Part shown: positions 2,248 to 37,147 of the stretch, piece after piece | How the letters are laid out: each line of letters starts with the position of its first letter | Numbering within the stretch: position 1 is the stretch's first letter | Assembly: GCA_043814055.1 (NCBI GenBank) | Contig: JBDRKL010000004.1 | Coordinates: 80,518-144,517 of the forward strand | Length of the DNA: 64,000 bases | From: an archaeon | GTDB taxonomy: Archaea; Undinarchaeota; Undinarchaeia; Undinarchaeales; JBDRKL01 | Direction of reading: 5' to 3' | Position numbers and translations under genes: made by a program | Notes under the pieces: model-generated | The model's input: the letters and a program-made list of their open reading frames with translations, nothing else | What the model was told of the DNA's origin: nothing | Databases searched by the model: none

Positions 2248-3690
2248 ATGGACCTTACCTTGAAGCAAACCGAAGAGCTAGTATGGGAGCTCCCAAAAAC
2301 TGGCGAAATGCTTGTTCCTGGAAGAATCTACGGCGACGAAGAAATCGTGAAGCACCTTAACAATGACGTGAAAGCCGGAAAGGACTGGAACGCTCTGAAG
2401 CAGGTTTACAACGTGGCGTGCCTGCCAGGAATTCAAAAAGCGTCGCTCGCGATGCCAGACGTGCACCCAGGATATGGCTTTCCAATCGGCGGTGTCGGGG
2501 CATTTGACACTGAAACCGGGGTAATTTCAGTTGCAGGAGTTGGCTTTGATATCAACTGCGGAGTCCGGACTTTAAAGACACCGCTCAAAAAGGATGATGT
2601 TGAAAAGAAAAAGAAAGAGCTCGCTGAAGTTTTATTCAGGGTAATCCCAGCTGGACTCGGCTCAACCGGCGACATCCGCCTGAGCATAGACCAGATTGAC
2701 GAAGTGCTGGTAAATGGTGCTAAGTACTCAGTAGAAAATGGATATGGCTTAAAGGAAGACCTTGAATTCATTGAAGAAAATGGAAAAATCGCAAATGCAA
2801 ATCCTGAGAATGTCTCACGAACCGCGAAGCAGAGGCAGTTCAAGCAGATAGGCACGCTCGGCTCTGGGAATCATTATCTTGAAGTGCAGTATGTTGATGA
2901 AATCTTTGACGAGGTGGCTGCAAAAGCATATGGGCTGGAAAAAGGCCAAATCCTGGTTTCAATTCACTGCGGCTCCCGCGCGCTCGGCCACCAAATCGGA
3001 ACTGACTACCTCAAAACTTTGGAAGCTGCGTCAAAGAAATACAAAATCCCAATCCGCGAGAAAGAGCTTGTATGCGCCCCGTTCACGAGCGAAGAGGGCC
3101 AGCAGTACTTCACCGCAATGAACTGCGGAATAAACTGCGCGTTTGCGAACCGCCAGGCGCTTGCTCACTTGACGCGGAAGGGTTTCACAGAAGTATTTGG
3201 TCTTGGAGAAAAAGAAGTTGAAACCTTTTACGAAATCGGGCATAATACCTGCAAGCTTGAGGAGCACGACGGCAAAAAGCTCATCGTGCACAGGAAAGGC
3301 GCAACAAGAGCGTTCGGCCCTGGGCGAAAAGAAGTGCCGAAAAAATACCGAGAAATCGGCCAGCCAGTCCTGGTCGGCGGGACAATGGGGACGTGCTCTT
3401 ACATACTCCACGGGACTCAGAAAGGGATGGACGAGACCTTCGGAAGCGCGTGCCACGGGGCAGGGAGAAATATGAGCCGCCAGCAGGCCAAGCGCGAGTA
3501 CTTCGGGGAAACAGTTATAAAAGAGCTCGCCGCAAAGGGCATAATAATCAAGGGTCATTCAAAGTCCGGAGTTTCAGAGGAAGCGCCAGGTGCCTACAAG
3601 GACGTTACTGAAGTGGTTGACGTAATGCATACTTCAGGAATTGCGAAGAAAGTTGTGAAAGTTAAACCTTTAATATCAATAAAGGGATAG
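2248..3690 (+). CDS. rtcB: RNA-splicing ligase RtcB
   Basis: PDVHPGYG, DINCG, GNHY, HCGSR, HRKGA, HGAGR motifs. Confidence 0.97.
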   Translation: MDLTLKQTEELVWELPKTGEMLVPGRIYGDEEIVKHLNNDVKAGKDWNALKQVYNVACLPGIQKASLAMPDVHPGYGFPIGGVGAFDTETGVISVAGVGFDINCGVRTLKTPLKKDDVEKKKKELAEVLFRVIPAGLGSTGDIRLSIDQIDEVLVNGAKYSVENGYGLKEDLEFIEENGKIANANPENVSRTAKQRQFKQIGTLGSGNHYLEVQYVDEIFDEVAAKAYGLEKGQILVSIHCGSRALGHQIGTDYLKTLEAASKKYKIPIREKELVCAPFTSEEGQQYFTAMNCGINCAFANRQALAHLTRKGFTEVFGLGEKEVETFYEIGHNTCKLEEHDGKKLIVHRKGATRAFGPGRKEVPKKYREIGQPVLVGGTMGTCSYILHGTQKGMDETFGSACHGAGRNMSRQQAKREYFGETVIKELAAKGIIIKGHSKSGVSEEAPGAYKDVTEVVDVMHTSGIAKKVVKVKPLISIKG

Positions 3691-31245: not shown

Positions 31246-31875
31246 ATGGCAAGGGAAACAGTTGACAAGTGGAAGAGCAAGAAATTCTTTGATGTTGTAG
31301 CCCCGCCGCTATTCAGGAACGCTGTCATAGGGCAGACAATCGCATCAGACATTCGCAAAGTCCCGGGCCGAATAGTAATGGCCAACTACAGCACAATCAT
31401 AGGCGATCCGAACTCAAGGAACAACAAGGTCAAGCTCAAGTTCAAAATCACAGGTGTCAAGGGCGAGAAGGCAGAGACAGAGTTCCTTGGTCACGCGCTT
31501 GTCCAGGACTATCAGCGCAGTTTGGCGAGGCGCAGGACGAGCAAGGTATACAAGAATCAGGTAGTCACCACAAAGGACGGAAAAAGACTTCGCGTGAAAT
31601 CAATTATTGTTACAACTAGGCAGGTTAAGAAGTCAATGAAGAGCGAGCTTGGCAAGAAACTTCTTGAGTTCATGGCTGAGGATGCAAAGCAGTACAATTA
31701 CAATGAATTCATCAATGACGCAGTTTCTGGCAGGATTTCAATGCGAATGAAGAAAGGGCTTTCCAAGTTCTACCCGCTCAGGCACGCAGTGGTTGAAAAG
31801 ACCGAAGTTATTAAGGAAGCTGTGAAGGCTGAGCCGAAGGTTGAAGAGAAGCCTGCAGAAGAGAAGAAGGAATAG
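31246..31875 (+). CDS. rps3ae: 30S ribosomal protein S3Ae (eS1)
   Basis: DKWKSKKFF..APP, RRRTSK, TKDG motifs; follows rps15. Confidence 0.95.
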   Translation: MARETVDKWKSKKFFDVVAPPLFRNAVIGQTIASDIRKVPGRIVMANYSTIIGDPNSRNNKVKLKFKITGVKGEKAETEFLGHALVQDYQRSLARRRTSKVYKNQVVTTKDGKRLRVKSIIVTTRQVKKSMKSELGKKLLEFMAEDAKQYNYNEFINDAVSGRISMRMKKGLSKFYPLRHAVVEKTEVIKEAVKAEPKVEEKPAEEKKE

Positions 31876-31888
31876 GAAGCTTTATTAA
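31876..31888 (+). promoter_or_regulatory. BRE/TATA promoter of the C/D sRNA
   Basis: GAAGC-TTTATTAA ending about 22 nt upstream of the predicted sRNA 5' end. Confidence 0.55.
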
Positions 31889-31910
31889 TTCTATAAGACA
31901 CCATATTACT

Positions 31911-31975
31911 TGCAGTGAAGAAGTGAACACCCTCTGATACCGCCCAAAGATGATGAGTATGGTAGCTTCTGAGCA
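31911..31975 (+). ncRNA. Archaeal box C/D methylation guide sRNA
   Basis: TGC-A-[C GTGAAGA 31915-21]-12 nt-[D' CTGA 31934-37]-12 nt-[C' ATGATGA 31950-56]-12 nt-[D CTGA 31969-72]-GCA; terminal TGC/GCA stem. Confidence 0.8.
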
Positions 31976-32036
31976 CTCAATGATTTTTTGGTCCAGCTTT
32001 TGCGCGAGTTTTGCGAGCGGAAAAGGTGGGTGCCAG

Positions 32037-32084
32037 CACCCTCTGATACCGCCCAAAGATGATGAGTATGGTAGCTTCTGAGCA
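32037..32084 (+). repeat. Exact 48-bp duplicate of the sRNA 3' part
   Basis: Identical to 31928-31975. Confidence 0.97.
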
Positions 32085-32169
32085 ATCTTTTTCCTTCCAA
32101 TTTATCAAAAACGTCGGACGCACAGCGTCCGAGGCCAACGCGCTTCGCGCGTCTGGAGCTTGACCAAAA

Positions 32170-32564
32170 ACAGTGCTGCTGCTTGATGTTTTTGAAGCAG
32201 CACGTGGCCGCTCTCCGCGGCCAGGCGGAGATAGCAGTAGCTTCTGAGCAATCGTTTTCACAAACTTCTATTGAGGCTTCGCCGATGGCGAATGCCTCTG
32301 CTCTGCCTCCGCGAGCAGGCGGAGCTTCTGAGCAATCTAAACTTTTATTTTTCACAAATTTGACCGAAGGCACCCGAATGGCTTGGTAATGCCACAGCAT
32401 CACCAATTTTATGTGGCATGCTCTGCCTCCGCGAGCAGGCGGAGCTTCTGAGCAATCTAAACTTTTATTTTTCACAAATTTGACCGAAGGCATCCTACTT
32501 GCTCGGTAGTCCCGCAGCATCAAAAATTTCTTGCGGGACAAAGTGCCGCCTGATTTTTCAGGCG
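32170..32564 (+). repeat. Tandem cluster of four hairpin elements separated by copies of the sRNA 3' end AGCTTCTGAGCAATC
   Basis: Terminal hairpins at 32213-30, 32307-24, 32427-44, 32547-64; 74-bp exact repeat 32299-32372 = 32419-32492 (period 120). Confidence 0.9.
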
Positions 32565-32567
32565 AAC

Positions 32568-32581
32568 GAAAGCTTTATATA
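32568..32581 (+). promoter_or_regulatory. BRE/TATA promoter upstream of hairpin array
   Basis: GAAAGC-TTTATATA; no ORF follows within 370 nt. Confidence 0.6.
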
Positions 32582-32604
32582 CCCTCACGGATTACTAGAT
32601 TTCC

Positions 32605-32915
32605 CCTCCGGGGGTCTGACTGTATTGGGGAGGCATTTCCAATCTCTCAGAACAAGCTTGGGTTGAGGTGGGATCTGTGAAAGCCTTCGGGCTTACATGG
32701 AATTTATCTTGACCCACTCTAAGATTGGACTGGGTGGGGGAACGCGAAACCTTCGGGCGACGCGCAATTCAACCCGGTCCACTCTAAACTTGGATTGGGG
32801 TTGGACATGTAAAATTTTCGGATTTTATGCGAAAGATCTCAATCCACTCTAACCTGGACCAGGTGGGAGAGCGCGAAAGTTTCGGCAGACGCGTAATTTA
32901 ACTTGGTCCACTCTT
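32605..32915 (+). ncRNA. Putative novel structured RNA with four tandem covarying UUCG hairpins
   Basis: Units 32659-716, 32726-781, 32791-846, 32855-910; each TGG...TTCG...CCA followed by CTCT(AA); G-U pairs favour plus strand; ends approximate. Confidence 0.75.
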
Positions 32916-32955
32916 CTTCTCAAAGTTTTTAAAGAGGCAGTCACTACACTATCTG

Positions 32956-34317
32956 ATGGACTCCATCCTTAAAGAGGTTCTCAAGCGGGCTACGCCGACC
33001 GAGGCAGAGCACAAGAAATTGGAAAGCTTTGCCCAGCAGGTTGTCAGGAAACTCAAGGCAGCCGGCTACAGGGCAGACGTAGAGGGCTCTATCGCAAAGG
33101 ACACCTGGGTTTCAGGCACGCACGATGTTGATATTTTCATGTTTTTTGAGCCAGGAGTTCCAAGAAGCAAACTGGAAAAGGATGGCATAGCAGCTGGCAA
33201 GAAAATCATAAAAGGGCTCGGCGGCAGCCCAGTGATTGCGTATGCCGAGCACCCTTATGTGAAAGGTGCTATTGGGAATTTCAACCTTGATATAGTCCCC
33301 TGCTATTCAATCAAAAAGACCGAGGAGCTTCAGTCCGCGGTTGACAGGACACCGTTCCACACCGCTTACATAAAGAAAAACCTCACCAAAAAGCAGATGG
33401 GTGAGACGCGCCTGCTCAAGCAATTTATGAAAGGCGTCGGCGTGTACAGCGCCAAGGAAAAAGTGCGCGGCTTTTCAGGTTATCTCTGCGAGCTTTTAAT
33501 CCTTGAGTACAAGGACTTCATGGGCGTTGTGAGAGCTGCCAAGAACTGGAAGTACGGCACGGTCATAGACCTAGAAAAGTTCTACAAGGGCAGGGAGGCA
33601 TTTAACCTGTTCAAGCACTCCCTCGTCGTGATAGACCCAATAGACAAGGACAGGAATGTTGCAGCCGCGGTTGAGAATGACAACTTTGAGCGTTTTTCAT
33701 TTGCGTGCAGCGAGTTCCTCGCGAAGCCGTCTAAAAAATTCTTTTACCCTGAAAATGTTCAAGTTCTTAGCAAAGGCGAGTTGAAAAAGAAACTTGAAAA
33801 GCACGGCGAACTATTCGTGGTCAAGTTTAAGACGCCAAAACTCATAGAGGACATTCTTTATTCTCAATTGAGGCGCAGTTTGGCTTCCTTAGTTAGGGCT
33901 GTGAAGGAAGAAGATTTTGAGGTTATTGACTCGGCGTTCCACTCCGATGAGTATTCATATTTCTTACTTGAGCTAAAAACTGCAAAGCTACCGGGGATTA
34001 AAAAGCTTGACGGCCCTCCAATCCAGATAAGTCAGGAACACCAAAAAAAATTCACGGACAAGTACAAGAAGCAAAAGCCATGGGTGGAGAAAGGCCGCTG
34101 GTATGTTGAAGTTCCTAGGGAATATGTCCAAGCTGTAAAGTTGCTCAAGCAGTTGCTCTCAAATCCGCGGCAGATTGGGATTGGAAAATATATATCAGAC
34201 AGTCTTAAGAAAGATTATAAAATCCTTTCAGGCTCAGAATTGTCTAAGGAATACAAGGAAGAATTTGCAACGTTTTTAACGCAGTACTTGGTCAAGAAGA
34301 ACTCCTGGAATTGGTAA
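32956..34317 (+). CDS. cca: Archaeal class I CCA-adding enzyme
   Basis: VEGSIAKDTW..HDVDIF, YAEHPY, DIVPCY, AVDRTPFH, GFSGYLCELL, DPIDKDRNVAAAV. Confidence 0.97.
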   Translation: MDSILKEVLKRATPTEAEHKKLESFAQQVVRKLKAAGYRADVEGSIAKDTWVSGTHDVDIFMFFEPGVPRSKLEKDGIAAGKKIIKGLGGSPVIAYAEHPYVKGAIGNFNLDIVPCYSIKKTEELQSAVDRTPFHTAYIKKNLTKKQMGETRLLKQFMKGVGVYSAKEKVRGFSGYLCELLILEYKDFMGVVRAAKNWKYGTVIDLEKFYKGREAFNLFKHSLVVIDPIDKDRNVAAAVENDNFERFSFACSEFLAKPSKKFFYPENVQVLSKGELKKKLEKHGELFVVKFKTPKLIEDILYSQLRRSLASLVRAVKEEDFEVIDSAFHSDEYSYFLLELKTAKLPGIKKLDGPPIQISQEHQKKFTDKYKKQKPWVEKGRWYVEVPREYVQAVKLLKQLLSNPRQIGIGKYISDSLKKDYKILSGSELSKEYKEEFATFLTQYLVKKNSWNW

Positions 34318-34318
34318 C

Positions 34319-34465
34319 TTAAATTTCTTCCTCTTCCACTGGAGTATCGTCTTGATCGTCGTTATATTCTTCGCTAGACTCACTGTCATCTTCCCAAAGA
34401 TCTTCGTCGCCCTCTAGCTCATCTTCTTTTTCTTCGTCTTCAAGATAATCATCGTCCACCACCAT
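34319..34465 (-). CDS. 48-aa hyper-acidic micropeptide
   Basis: MVVDDDYLEDEEKEDELEGDEDLWEDDSESSEEYNDDQDDTPVEEEEI*, 28/48 D/E, GAGGTGGTG RBS; not in ORF track. Confidence 0.7.
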   Translation of the reverse strand: MVVDDDYLEDEEKEDELEGDEDLWEDDSESSEEYNDDQDDTPVEEEEI

Positions 34466-34549
34466 TAACACCACCTCAAAGTTTTTTGAACTGGGCTTCG
34501 TAATTACATAAATAGTTTATAAACCTTTCTAATTCCCAAAAAATAGAAA

Positions 34550-34567
34550 GGCGGCCCGGAGGCCGCC
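34550..34567 (-). terminator. GC hairpin plus U-tract downstream of basic peptide gene
   Basis: Minus strand GGCGGCC-TCCG-GGCCGCC followed by TTTCTATTTTT. Confidence 0.55.
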
Positions 34568-34587
34568 AACATTATCACAAACTTCGT

Positions 34588-34689
34588 TTATCTCTTCTTT
34601 TTTGTTGTCTTTTTCTTGGCGGCCTTTCTCTTCACGGTTCTCTTCTTTACCGCCTTTTTCTTTACAGCTTTTTTCTTTTTTGCAGGCAT
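34588..34689 (-). CDS. 33-aa lysine-rich (histone H1/HC2-like) micropeptide
   Basis: MPAKKKKAVKKKAVKKRTVKRKAAKKKTTKKKR*, 20/33 K/R, GGAGGTG RBS; not in ORF track. Confidence 0.75.
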   Translation of the reverse strand: MPAKKKKAVKKKAVKKRTVKRKAAKKKTTKKKR

Positions 34690-36950: not shown

Positions 36951-37030
36951 CACCAGTGCTCAATTGGCTGGGTAGTCCTGCAGCATGACAAATATCCTGC
37001 AGGACAGCTTGTCAACTGAGCTTGCAGTTG
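36951..37030 (+). repeat. Multi-hairpin repeat element (type A) in tRNA-Thr leader
   Basis: GGTA 36971-74, stem GTCCTGCA/TGCAGGAC, 15-nt loop GCATGACAAATATCC, 7-nt linker, 18-nt hairpin CAACTGAGCTTGCAGTTG 37013-30. Confidence 0.75.
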
Positions 37031-37147
37031 CCTCGATAGCTCAGTTGGTAGAGCGTTACCTTGGTACACGGCACGAGAATCGTGCGCGATTCCGACTGCC
37101 GTCGAAACAGGTAAAGGCCGGGAGTTCAACTCTCCCTCGGGGCTCCA
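37030..37147 (+). tRNA. tRNA-Thr(GGT) with 42-nt intron at 37/38 (37067-37108), CCA encoded
   Basis: Acceptor GCCTCGA/TCGGGGC, D stem GCTC/GAGC, anticodon stem TTACC/GGTAA, anticodon 37063-65, TTCAACT loop. Confidence 0.93.

What the first reader, a model, noticed from the sequence alone, without database searches (positions are those of the whole stretch)
32605..32915. Four-unit array of covarying UUCG hairpins (UGG...CCA-CUCUAA) with its own promoter, directly upstream of cca
Seen: four units (32659-716, 32726-781, 32791-846, 32855-910; 58/56/56/56 nt; periods 67, 65, 64). They differ in sequence but share one fold: ~10-bp basal stem opening with TGG and closing with CCA (TGGACTGGGT/ACCCGGTCCA, TGGACCAGGT/ACTTGGTCCA etc.), a purine-rich/AATT internal loop, a middle stem, an (G/A)AAA bulge and a TTCG apical loop. 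Units are joined by CTCTAA+2-3 nt. Wobble pairs and UUCG loops work only on the plus strand. A BRE-TATA (32568-81) precedes the array, and cca has a separate TATA-like box (TTTTTAAA near 32926). Established: UUCG is an extra-stable RNA tetraloop; CCA-adding enzyme and RNase Z act on acceptor-stem-like helices. Inference: a transcribed multi-unit RNA I cannot assign to any known class. One option is processing into G1-C72/G2-C71/A73 minihelix mimics that are substrates, decoys or regulators of the neighbouring CCA enzyme (the tRNA-Phe trailer here, CCC-A-CTCAAA, resembles CC-A-CTCTAA). Another is a multivalent protein sponge.
Basis: partly seen in the sequence, partly recalled or inferred. Interest (0 to 1): 0.9.

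Follow-up and report, generated by a model that had tools for sequence, protein, structure and literature searches.

The report
Tandem tRNA-end-mimic hairpin RNA array
A small uncultured archaeon (Undinarchaeota) carries, just upstream of the gene for the enzyme that adds CCA to tRNA ends, a promoter-driven array of four hairpin RNAs whose ends copy unfinished tRNA ends; the array matches no described RNA family and probably uses the tRNA-trimming machinery.

Summary
Four hairpin units lie at exactly the stated coordinates. They fold well only on the + strand, and 9 of their 25 pairs covary. No Rfam family matches.

Homologous arrays of 2-6 units occur in eight Undinarchaeales lineages. In every case the array sits between a BRE/TATA promoter and the separate promoter of cca, on the same strand. 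I found none in the other 397 archaeal genomes searched with the model, nor in a pattern scan of 185,579 species. Several sister lineages also lack it.

The new finding concerns the unit ends. Across 30 units the ends are nearly invariant: U(-1), G1, G2, A3 ... U70, C71, C72, A73, then C74, U75. This is the signature of this organism's own tRNA genes that lack an encoded CCA. The helix interior covaries freely. The number of upper arms varies from 1 to 3.

Best reading (about 45%): a polycistronic precursor cut by RNase P and RNase Z into tRNA-acceptor mimics, which then receive CCA. This is an untested, cargo-less tandem variant of tRNA-like "t-elements". The role of the mature RNAs is unknown. 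The cca linkage is consistent but traces to one inherited locus. No transcript data could be obtained.

The parts
32567..32581 (+). Archaeal BRE (CGAAAG) plus TATA box (CTTTATATA): the array's own promoter
   Evidence: Read. Equivalent A-rich BRE plus TTTAWATA boxes stand 60-90 nt upstream of the first unit in G003, G007, G011, L141, L143 and L179.
32603..32658 (+). Predicted 5' leader with two small hairpins (CCCC-UCCG-GGGG at 32603-32614; a second at about 32615-32651)
   Evidence: MFE fold. The transcription start is inferred from the usual spacing of about 25 nt after the TATA box. The leader sequence is not conserved between lineages.
32659..32716 (+). Unit 1: U-1/GGG...CCC/A73, 58 nt, UUCG-capped hairpin
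   Evidence: -31.4 kcal/mol, z = -5.6; CM R1 76.9 bits; 14 contiguous basal pairs.
32726..32781 (+). Unit 2: U-1/GGA...UCC/A73, 56 nt
   Evidence: -28.9 kcal/mol, z = -3.9; R1 83.6 bits.
32791..32846 (+). Unit 3: U-1/GGA...UCC/A73, 56 nt
   Evidence: -19.8 kcal/mol, z = -4.0; the - strand gives z = -0.9; R1 76.4 bits.
32855..32910 (+). Unit 4: U-1/GGA...UCC/A73, 56 nt, with the GGUGGGAGA motif in its consensus form
   Evidence: -25.0 kcal/mol, z = -3.3; R1 78.6 bits.
32717..32725 (+). Linker 1 (CUCUAAGAU), which looks like a pre-tRNA trailer plus leader. Linkers 2 (32782-32790, CUCUAAACU) and 3 (32847-32854, CUCUAACC) are of the same kind.
   Evidence: C74 in 30 of 30 units and U75 in 28 of 30. 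The same CU(C/A/U) trailer follows A73 in 9 of about 17 CCA-less tRNA genes of this genome.
32911..32932 (+). 3' trailer CUCUUCUUCUCAAAG followed by a T5 run. This is the probable oligo-T terminator of the array and overlaps the TATA-like box of cca (TTTTTAAA, 32925-32932).
   Evidence: T4-T8 runs follow the last unit in G011, L141, L143, L144 and L179.
32956..34317 (+). cca: a class I archaeal CCA-adding enzyme (453 aa), probably with a leaderless mRNA from its own promoter
   Evidence: Pfam NTP_transf_2, tRNA_NucTransf2 and CAA_C. Array-less relatives have the same TATA-to-ATG spacing.
31911..31975 (+). Context: a C/D box sRNA (GUGAAGA..CUGA..UGAUGA..CUGA, 12-nt guides). It is conserved next to rpS3Ae across the order, and duplicated or fragmentary copies extend to about 32540.
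   Evidence: weak Rfam C/D hits; the same sRNA in relatives.

Best explanation
The locus is a stand-alone gene for a polycistronic non-coding RNA made of tandem tRNA-acceptor-arm mimics.

**Shown**
- Each unit is closed by a covarying helix of about 12-13 layers.
- The outer end of that helix and both flanks reproduce a CCA-less pre-tRNA of this organism: U-1 | G1 G2 A3 ... U70 C71 C72 A73 | C U N W A A.
- A second conserved block (GGU-GGGAGA, purine-rich) starts at about position 8 of the 5' strand; its GGGAGA part sits at the inner end of the helix, about 11-13 layers from G1. In a tRNA, the elbow lies 12 bp from the acceptor end.
- Everything above this block varies: 1-3 arms, mostly UUCG-capped, which look like stabilising filler.

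**Inferred**
- Transcription starts at the BRE/TATA box and ends at the oligo-T run in front of the cca promoter.
- RNase Z cuts after A73 and RNase P cuts before G1, releasing hairpins of about 55-120 nt.
- The neighbouring CCA-adding enzyme then tails these hairpins like tRNA minihelices.

**Speculative**
The mature, stable, multi-copy RNAs compete with or buffer the tRNA end-maturation enzymes (CCA enzyme, RNase Z, RNase P). Alternatively, they use that pathway only for maturation and stability, and act through the GGGAGA junction.
For: **Real structured RNA**
- Fold z-scores, strand asymmetry and 15% wobble pairs.
- In the basal helix of 24 units, 10 of 14 pairs change on both sides (59 cells). 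89.8% of cells are paired, against 24-51% when slid. None of 500 shuffles reaches the observed score.
- Within-unit complementarity is 6.8 of 7, against 4.5 of 7 between units.

**Conserved family**
- CM hits occur in tandem in G003, G007 and G011, and in the metagenomic contigs L140, L141, L142, L143 and L144; L179 was read by eye.
- All arrays have a promoter box and mostly a T-run.

**tRNA-end signature in 30 units**

| Position | Base | Units |
|---|---|---|
| -1 | U | 28 |
| 1, 2 | G, G | 30 |
| 3 | A | 28 |
| 70 | U | 28 |
| 71, 72 | C, C | 30 |
| 73 | A | 28 |
| 74 | C | 30 |
| 75 | U | 28 |

**Same signature in real tRNA genes**
- Own genome: 18 of 40 tRNA genes lack an encoded CCA. 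About 15 of these have A73, and 9 have A73-CU (for example Val-CAC, GGACCCG..CGGGUCC-A-CUCUUAC). U stands at -1 in about 30 of 40.
- ACT has a background frequency of 1.3% per position.
- In G003, 22 of 26 tRNA genes lack CCA and 6 have A73-CU trailers.
- Genuine tandem tRNA genes are 6-7 nt apart. Unit linkers are 6-10 nt.

**Machinery and precedent**
- RNase P RNA and RNase Z are encoded, and cca is a complete class I enzyme.
- tRNA-like t-elements are cut by RNase P and tRNase Z in Haloferax (PMC4326828).
- In plant mitochondria, released t-elements carry non-templated C/CC/CA, and bare acceptor-stem-like stem-loops are proposed as cleavage signals (PMC1920247).
Against: - There are no transcript, end-mapping or enzymatic data.
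- The units have no T-arm (no GTTCRANNC in 30 units) and no tRNA-model hit. Recognition would therefore rest on minihelix geometry alone.
- U-1 can pair with A73, which in real pre-tRNAs can disturb RNase P site choice.
- RNase P, RNase Z and cca are equally present in relatives without the array. The array is dispensable, so it is not part of the core pathway.
- Local alignments of units to tRNA genes pick tRNA 3' ends plus trailers, but do not score above shuffles.
- The cca adjacency is inherited from one ancestral locus.
Confidence: 0.45

Rival explanations
1. A multivalent protein-binding scaffold or sponge RNA. The conserved GGUGGGAGA junction, the AAA/NGA internal loop of arm 1, or the UGGA/UCCA helix end would be repeated binding sites for a lineage-specific or ribosomal/RNA-binding protein. 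The resemblance to tRNA ends would be incidental, or would serve only to stabilise the helix end.
For: - Tandem multi-copy design with two conserved sequence blocks, while the helix interior and arms vary.
- Semi-conserved AAA/(Y)GA loop in arm 1 across G000, L143, G011 and G003.
- Patchy, dispensable distribution.
Against: - No K-turn (no 3-nt bulge followed by tandem G.A) and no other recognisable protein-binding motif.
- No partner gene travels with the array. The neighbours are housekeeping genes that array-less relatives also have.
- It does not explain why positions -1, 73, 74 and 75, which lie outside the helix, match the tRNA-gene consensus.
Confidence: 0.22
2. A cis-acting element of cca expression. 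Transcription from the array promoter would run into or through the cca promoter. That would cause transcriptional interference, or a read-through array-cca RNA whose tRNA-like last unit is cut to release the cca mRNA. Array transcription or processing would thereby tune CCA-enzyme levels.
For: - The array is always co-oriented with cca and immediately upstream of it in 8 lineages.
- In the window, the only T-run after unit 4 is inside the cca TATA box.
- G003 and G007 have no T5 run between the last unit and the cca TATA.
- In G003, an orphan ORF was inserted upstream of the array rather than between the array and cca.
Against: - cca keeps its own TATA box about 25 nt before the ATG, with or without the array. 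It does not need the array.
- Most arrays end in T5-T8 runs.
- A mere interference element would not need 2-6 elaborately conserved, covarying units.
Confidence: 0.12
3. A multi-hairpin archaeal H/ACA guide RNA. It would have a lower stem, a pseudouridylation pocket and an upper stem, with a 3' box 14-16 nt from the pocket, and would work with Cbf5.
For: - Cbf5 is encoded.
- The tandem hairpins each carry a conserved trinucleotide right after the lower stem.
- The distance from the upper stem to that trinucleotide is about 16 nt in units 2 and 4 (sequence).
Against: - The box is ACU in 28 of 30 units, not ANA/ACA.
- There is no K-turn or K-loop for L7Ae.
- The 'pocket' 5' strand (GGGAGA) is conserved between units and lineages rather than target-specific. 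It is largely paired with the 3' strand, and some units carry extra arms inside it.
- A bipartite target search on the rRNA operon gave 0 hits for units 2-4. Unit 1 gave 2 against 1.2 expected.
- Cbf5 is equally present in array-less relatives.
Confidence: 0.03
4. Decaying relics of a tRNA gene cluster, or a selfish/mobile hairpin repeat without function. The window's genome contains other intergenic hairpin repeats.
For: - tRNA-like ends.
- GGGAGAGC resembles the 3' half of a D-arm. This is a resemblance noted by eye, not a test.
- The region upstream is full of duplicated sRNA fragments.
- Patchy distribution.
Against: - Strong compensatory covariation, and retention in lineages whose cca proteins are only about 53-57% identical.
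- One locus per genome: the CM finds nothing else in G000, G003, G007 or G011. There are no other copies by blastn.
- Conserved promoter.
Confidence: 0.06

Closest known systems
t-elements: tRNA-like processing elements. Known upstream of 5S rRNA and elsewhere in Haloferax volcanii (Holzle et al. 2008 and 2012, as cited in PMC4326828), and in wheat and Arabidopsis mitochondria (PMC1920247).
   Same: Non-tRNA structures that present an acceptor-stem-like helix with pre-tRNA-like flanks. They are, or are proposed to be, cut by RNase P at the 5' side and by tRNase Z after the discriminator. Released plant t-elements receive non-templated C/CC/CA from the tRNA nucleotidyltransferase (PMC1920247).
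   Different: - Known t-elements are single and flank a cargo RNA (5S rRNA or an mRNA) whose end they create. They usually keep a canonical T-arm (GGTTCRANYCC).
- Here the elements are tandem (2-6 per array) with no cargo, only 6-10 nt linkers. They lack any T-arm, have 1-3 UUCG-type arms and a GGGAGA junction, have their own promoter, and sit next to cca.
- Processing is not demonstrated here.
Acceptor-T-arm minihelices, the in-vitro substrates of RNase P, tRNase Z and CCA-adding enzymes (established biochemistry, from my own knowledge), and the 'acceptor-stem-like stem-loops' at plant mitochondrial mRNA ends (PMC1920247).
   Same: A helix of about 12 bp ending in G1-C72 with a single-stranded discriminator. 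Recognition depends on helix end plus length, not on an anticodon.
   Different: Minihelices carry a 7-nt T-loop at the 12-bp mark. These units carry a purine-rich internal loop or junction and further helices there. A natural, genomically encoded multi-copy form is, to my knowledge, not described.
Polycistronic tRNA gene clusters
   Same: One promoter, units separated by a few nucleotides, and each unit delimited by U-1/G1 and A73/CU. Real Asp-Lys and Val-Thr tRNA pairs in these genomes are 6-7 nt apart.
   Different: There is no cloverleaf, no anticodon loop, no T- or D-loop, and no RF00005 or ARAGORN hit.
Archaeal multi-hairpin H/ACA sRNAs
   Same: Tandem hairpins with a conserved trinucleotide after each lower stem. 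PUA-domain recognition of ACA is itself a mimic of tRNA-CCA recognition (from my own knowledge).
   Different: ACU instead of ACA, no K-turn, a conserved rather than guide-like loop, and no rRNA target.

Membership tests
t-element (tRNA-like processing element) | Acceptor-stem-like closing helix with pre-tRNA-like 5' and 3' flanks | tested here: met
   U-1 in 28 of 30 units, G1G2 in 30, C71C72 in 30, A73 in 28, C74 in 30, U75 in 28. The same signature occurs in CCA-less tRNA genes of G000 and G003.
t-element (tRNA-like processing element) | Conserved T-arm (GGTTCRANYCC) / non-canonical cloverleaf | tested here: not met
   0 of 30 units contain GTTCRANNC. There is no RF00005 hit even at E < 10. 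Only one unit (G011 U2) has three arms.
t-element (tRNA-like processing element) | Cleaved by RNase P and tRNase Z at the element's ends | not testable with these tools
   The enzymes are encoded. There are no RNA data.
t-element (tRNA-like processing element) | Its ends create the end of an adjacent functional RNA (cargo) | tested here: not met
   Units are separated only by 6-10 nt linkers. The downstream gene, cca, has its own promoter.
tRNA (RF00005) | Cloverleaf with a 7-nt anticodon loop and D/T loops | tested here: not met
   no hit in 32600-32920. In the window's four units the loops are UUCG tetraloops.
Archaeal H/ACA sRNA | ACA (ANA) box 3' of the lower stem | tested here: not met
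   ACU in 28 of 30 units.
Archaeal H/ACA sRNA | K-turn or K-loop in the upper stem | tested here: not met
   By reading the sequences, no 3-nt bulge followed by tandem G.A/A.G is present. The AAA/NGA loop is symmetric.
Archaeal H/ACA sRNA | Bipartite guide pocket complementary to rRNA around a U | tested here: not met
   0 hits for units 2-4, and unit 1 at the chance level, on the 6-kb rRNA operon region. Coverage of 23S was assumed from operon order, not verified.
C/D box sRNA | C (RUGAUGA) and D (CUGA) boxes with 12-nt guides | tested here: not met
   Absent from the units. Present in the separate sRNA at 31911-31975.
Type III toxin-antitoxin RNA repeats (ToxI-like) | Near-identical tandem repeats upstream of an endoribonuclease toxin | tested here: not met
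   The units differ, with compensatory changes. The downstream gene is a complete, order-wide conserved CCA-adding enzyme.

The most novel reading that the evidence does not exclude
A natural, genomically encoded multi-copy 'minihelix' RNA that is a dedicated partner of the CCA-adding enzyme. RNase P and RNase Z would release tRNA top-half mimics. The neighbouring enzyme would tail them with CCA (or CCACCA, given the invariant G1G2). The mimics would then titrate, buffer or report tRNA 3'-end maturation capacity in a genome-reduced DPANN archaeon. This would be a free-standing, cargo-less t-element array acting as a regulator rather than as a processing signal.
Probability: 0.2. Interest if true: 0.85.

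Novelty: new variant of a known kind. Interest (0 to 1): 0.62.

Why it matters
**Why it would matter if the processing model holds**
- It would be the first natural tandem array of tRNA acceptor-arm mimics with no cargo. That would show tRNA-end enzymes (RNase P, RNase Z, CCA-adding enzyme) being used to make, or being regulated by, a separate class of small RNAs in archaea.
- It would give the minihelix, so far a laboratory substrate and a centrepiece of tRNA-origin hypotheses, a living counterpart.
- It would offer compact, self-excising RNA modules for archaeal genetic tools, as the Haloferax t-elements already do.

**What holds without the mechanism**
It is a well-supported new structured RNA family in an uncultured DPANN phylum. 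It has a clear covariance model and directly testable predictions: 5' ends at G1, and 3' ends at A73 plus non-templated CCA.

**Limits**
The family is narrow (8 known lineages of one order) and dispensable in sister lineages. Its function is unknown.

Tried and rejected
- **Rfam.** Nothing at gathering thresholds or at E < 10 except a chance miRNA hit.
- **tRNA detectors.** No hit in the array.
- **H/ACA reading.** No ACA box, no K-turn, a conserved 'pocket' and no rRNA target. Cbf5 is present everywhere, so it does not discriminate.
- **K-turn, bulge-helix-bulge, loop-E.** Readings of the GGGAGA and AAA/NGA loops by eye fitted none of these.
- **Similarity to the rest of the genome.** blastn-short found nothing beyond 13-15-nt chance matches.
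- **Unit-versus-tRNA local alignment.** The best hits are tRNA 3' ends plus trailers, but the scores are not above shuffles.
- **D-arm and T-loop resemblances.** GGGAGAGC resembles a D-arm 3' half, and AAUUCAA in unit 2 resembles a T-loop. I noted both and did not pursue them as evidence.
- **Pattern scan of 185,579 species genomes.** Only the two Undinarchaeota records had multiple matches. The 20 single hits in bacteria are at the chance level.
- **Pattern scan of JGI metagenome contigs.** There were 76 single hits. None is an array, and only one reaches the CM threshold; on reading it is a chance hairpin.
- **Unavailable.** The Holzle 2008 paper (PMC2327364) is not held.
- **MAFFT alignment of whole units** was structurally poor. 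I replaced it with CM-based alignments and a fixed-length end alignment.

Full report
**1. The observation**

- On the + strand each folds into one long irregular hairpin capped by UUCG, at -19.8 to -31.4 kcal/mol with z = -3.3 to -5.6.
- On the - strand two of the four units are no better than shuffles.
- The 341-nt region as a whole gives z = -5.95.
- On an alignment of the four units, 87% of cells are paired and 9 of 25 pairs change on both sides. No shuffle reaches the observed covariation score, and slid controls pair at only 22-47%.
- The BRE/TATA at 32567-32581, the TATA-like TTTTTAAA at 32925-32932 and the cca ATG at 32956 are all in the sequence.
- cca is a complete class I archaeal CCA-adding enzyme.

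The 'purine-rich/AATT internal loop' is largely closed by GGG/UUY pairs, so the basal helix is about 12-13 layers long.

**2. Known classes**

- Rfam gives only three tRNAs elsewhere in the window. Nothing credible falls in 31500-33200 even at E < 10.
- ARAGORN finds nothing in the array.
- Upstream, at 31911-32540, lies a C/D box sRNA with duplicated or fragmentary copies. It is a separate gene.

**3. Organism and distribution**

The window lies in a 0.98-Mb, 82%-complete genome. Record titles of its relatives identify the phylum as Undinarchaeota, order Undinarchaeales.

| Search | Result |
|---|---|
| Model R1 (four units), own genome | Only the four units |
| R1, relatives | Tandem hits in three genomes of another family (G003, G007, G011) |
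| Model R2 (12 units), order / phylum | 4 of 13 genomes in the order; 0 of 4 in the rest of the phylum |
| R2, nearest 401 archaeal genomes | 4 of 401 |
| Sequence pattern, 185,579 species genomes | Multiple matches only in the two Undinarchaeota records; the rest are chance singles |
| Same pattern type, JGI metagenome contigs | Nothing real |

Going through cca homologues instead added arrays on the metagenomic contigs L140 (G011-like), L141/L142, L143, L144 (partial) and L179. That makes eight lineages, with 2-6 units each.

**4. Context**

The ancestral neighbourhood is PCC, Ham1, rpS15, rpS3Ae, C/D sRNA, cca.
- In G004 and G006 the C/D sRNA is followed directly by the cca promoter. G001 and L180 have a small ORF there. 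L139 and P0003 have no room for an array.
- Where the array exists, it always lies between the C/D sRNA side and the cca promoter, on the cca strand.
- Each array has its own BRE/TATA box. Most end in a T4-T8 run; G003 and G007 have none before the cca TATA.
- In G003 an orphan 180-aa ORF has been inserted upstream of the array, not between the array and cca.
- In L141 and L143 the C/D sRNA cluster is inverted.
- cca keeps a TATA box about 25 nt before its ATG, with or without the array.
- On a cca protein tree, array-bearing lineages are not monophyletic. That suggests ancestral presence with several losses, but a single-gene tree with an unresolved base is weak evidence.

The cca adjacency is therefore perfectly consistent, yet it amounts to roughly one inherited event.

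**5. Anatomy across 30 units**

*Basal helix (shown).* An end-anchored alignment of 24 units gives 14 pairs with 89.8% of cells paired. Ten pairs change on both sides (59 cells). None of 500 shuffles reaches this, and slid controls pair at 24-51%. Complementarity within a unit is 6.8 of 7 variable positions, against 4.5 of 7 between units of different genomes. Neighbouring units keep distinct helices. 15% of the pairs are wobble, which fixes the strand.

*Two conserved blocks (shown).*
- The helix end and its flanks: U-1 in 28 of 30, G1 and G2 in 30, A3 in 28, U70 in 28, C71 and C72 in 30, A73 in 28, C74 in 30, U75 in 28, then [C/U/A][A/U]AA.
- GGU-GGGAGA, starting at about position 8 of the 5' strand; GGGAG itself occurs in 24 of 30 units.

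*Variable part.* Above the second block the units have one, two or three arms and are 56-122 nt long. 20 of 30 units have at least one UUCG. Arm 1 often has an AAA/(Y)GA internal loop.

**6. The key comparison: pre-tRNA ends**

- In the window's genome, 22 of 40 tRNA genes encode CCA.
- Of the roughly 17 credible CCA-less genes, about 15 have A73. Nine continue A73-C-U, for example Val-CAC (GGACCCG...CGGGUCC-A-CUCUUAC), Phe (...CCC-A-CUCAAAC) and Ala-GGC (...GGGUCC-A-CUUCAA).
- U precedes G1 in about 30 of 40 genes.
- ACT occurs at 1.3% of positions genome-wide.
- In G003, 22 of 26 tRNA genes lack CCA, and 6 have A73-CU trailers, for example Ala-UGC (...GGGUCC-A-CUCAAA).
- Genuine tandem tRNA genes are 6-7 nt apart: Asp-Lys in G000 and Val-Thr in G003. 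Unit linkers are 6-10 nt.
- The best local alignments of units 2-4 to tRNA genes are to tRNA 3' ends plus trailers, although the scores do not exceed shuffles.
- RNase P RNA and RNase Z are encoded in all seven Undinarchaeales genomes checked.

**7. Interpretation**

The two conserved blocks coincide with the two places where tRNA-end enzymes touch a tRNA. One is the acceptor end with its flanks. The other is a feature about 12 bp away, where the elbow lies. The interior of the helix and the arms are free to vary. That is what recognition by shape and ends, rather than by sequence, would predict.

*Model (inferred).* It is a polycistronic precursor. RNase Z cuts after A73 and RNase P cuts before G1. 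The released hairpins are CCA-tailed by the adjacent enzyme.

*Precedents.*
- Archaeal t-elements are cut by RNase P and tRNase Z in Haloferax (PMC4326828).
- Plant mitochondrial t-elements, once released, carry non-templated C/CC/CA (PMC1920247).
- The same study proposes bare acceptor-stem-like stem-loops as cleavage signals (PMC1920247).

*Estimates.*

| Claim | Probability |
|---|---|
| Real, selected structured RNA | about 0.9 |
| Processed by the tRNA-end pathway | about 0.45-0.5 |
| Regulatory relation to the CCA enzyme beyond being its substrate | about 0.2 |

**8. Rivals**

- **Protein scaffold or sponge.** Possible, but it leaves the extra-helical -1, 73, 74 and 75 signature unexplained, and no partner gene co-occurs.
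- **cis-regulation of cca by read-through or interference.** Possible as an added layer. In the window the T5 run lies inside the cca TATA, and G003 and G007 lack a T5 run. However, cca has its own promoter everywhere.
- **H/ACA guide.** Rejected: ACU instead of ACA, no K-turn, a conserved and largely paired 'pocket', and no rRNA target. Cbf5 is present with or without the array.
- **Relic tRNA genes or a selfish repeat.** Contradicted by compensatory covariation, a single locus per genome and the conserved promoter.

**9. Novelty**

The kind (tRNA-like processing elements, minihelix substrates) is known. A promoter-driven, cargo-less tandem array lacking a T-arm, with a GGGAGA junction and fixed next to cca, is not described in Rfam. 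It also did not appear in the papers I could search; that search was not exhaustive. I file it as a new variant of a known kind.

**10. Limits**

- Only eight lineages are known, and five of them were found through cca, which biases the synteny count.
- Unit boundaries in relatives were curated by hand.
- CM E-values are rough.

Noticed in passing
window 31911-32540: A C/D box sRNA (31911-31975: GUGAAGA..CUGA..UGAUGA..CUGA, 12-nt guides) is followed by four further copies or fragments, all ending in GCTTCTGAGCAATC. These include a 120-bp tandem duplication (32299-32529, 90% identical). The same sRNA sits next to rpS3Ae throughout the order. In L141 and L143 it is on the opposite strand, and L141 also has duplicated copies.
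   Followed up: partly
whole genome G000: 22 of 40 tRNA genes encode CCA and 18 do not. In the relative G003 only the four tRNA-Ser genes of the 26 examined encode it. U at -1 and A73-CU trailers are strongly preferred. In six tRNAs, U-1 can pair with A73, so ARAGORN shifts their boundaries by one base.
   Followed up: partly
G000 C12:115016 and C6:86651 (outside the window): ARAGORN calls an intron-containing 'tRNA-Pyl (CUA)' with acceptor GGAUCCG/CGGAUCC-A-CUCAAA, and a poor 'tRNA-His (AUG)' with only 5 of 7 acceptor pairs. Both look like mis-assignments caused by intron placement, or are not tRNAs.
   Followed up: no
window 37030-37144: Rfam finds a 115-nt tRNA (56.6 bits) that ARAGORN's default run on the window misses. 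With intron search it is tRNA-Thr(GGU) with a 42-nt intron.
   Followed up: partly
L017 (G003) 2404-2946: A 180-aa ORF with no Pfam family is inserted between the C/D sRNA and the array in G003. A 119-aa ORF (3300-3659, -) lies upstream of the array in G007. It is absent from the window's genome.
   Followed up: no
L141 2592-2680: An extra, divergent first unit (UUGGGC...GCCCAA-CAC, with GGGGUAA instead of GGGAGA) precedes the two canonical two-arm units. In G003 and G007 the last unit ends in UCCG-CUG/CCG instead of UCCA-CU, whereas its L179 orthologue is canonical.
   Followed up: no
L179 1-23: The Logan contig starts with an Illumina adapter remnant (..GACGTGTGCTCTTCCGATCT). This is an assembly artefact at the contig end.
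   Followed up: no
window 34319-34689: The gap between cca and hjc varies between relatives: small unannotated ORFs, an ATP-grasp gene in L140, and 90-103-aa orphans in G003, L139 and P0003. An earlier first-stage note proposes micropeptide genes here. I did not examine it.
   Followed up: no
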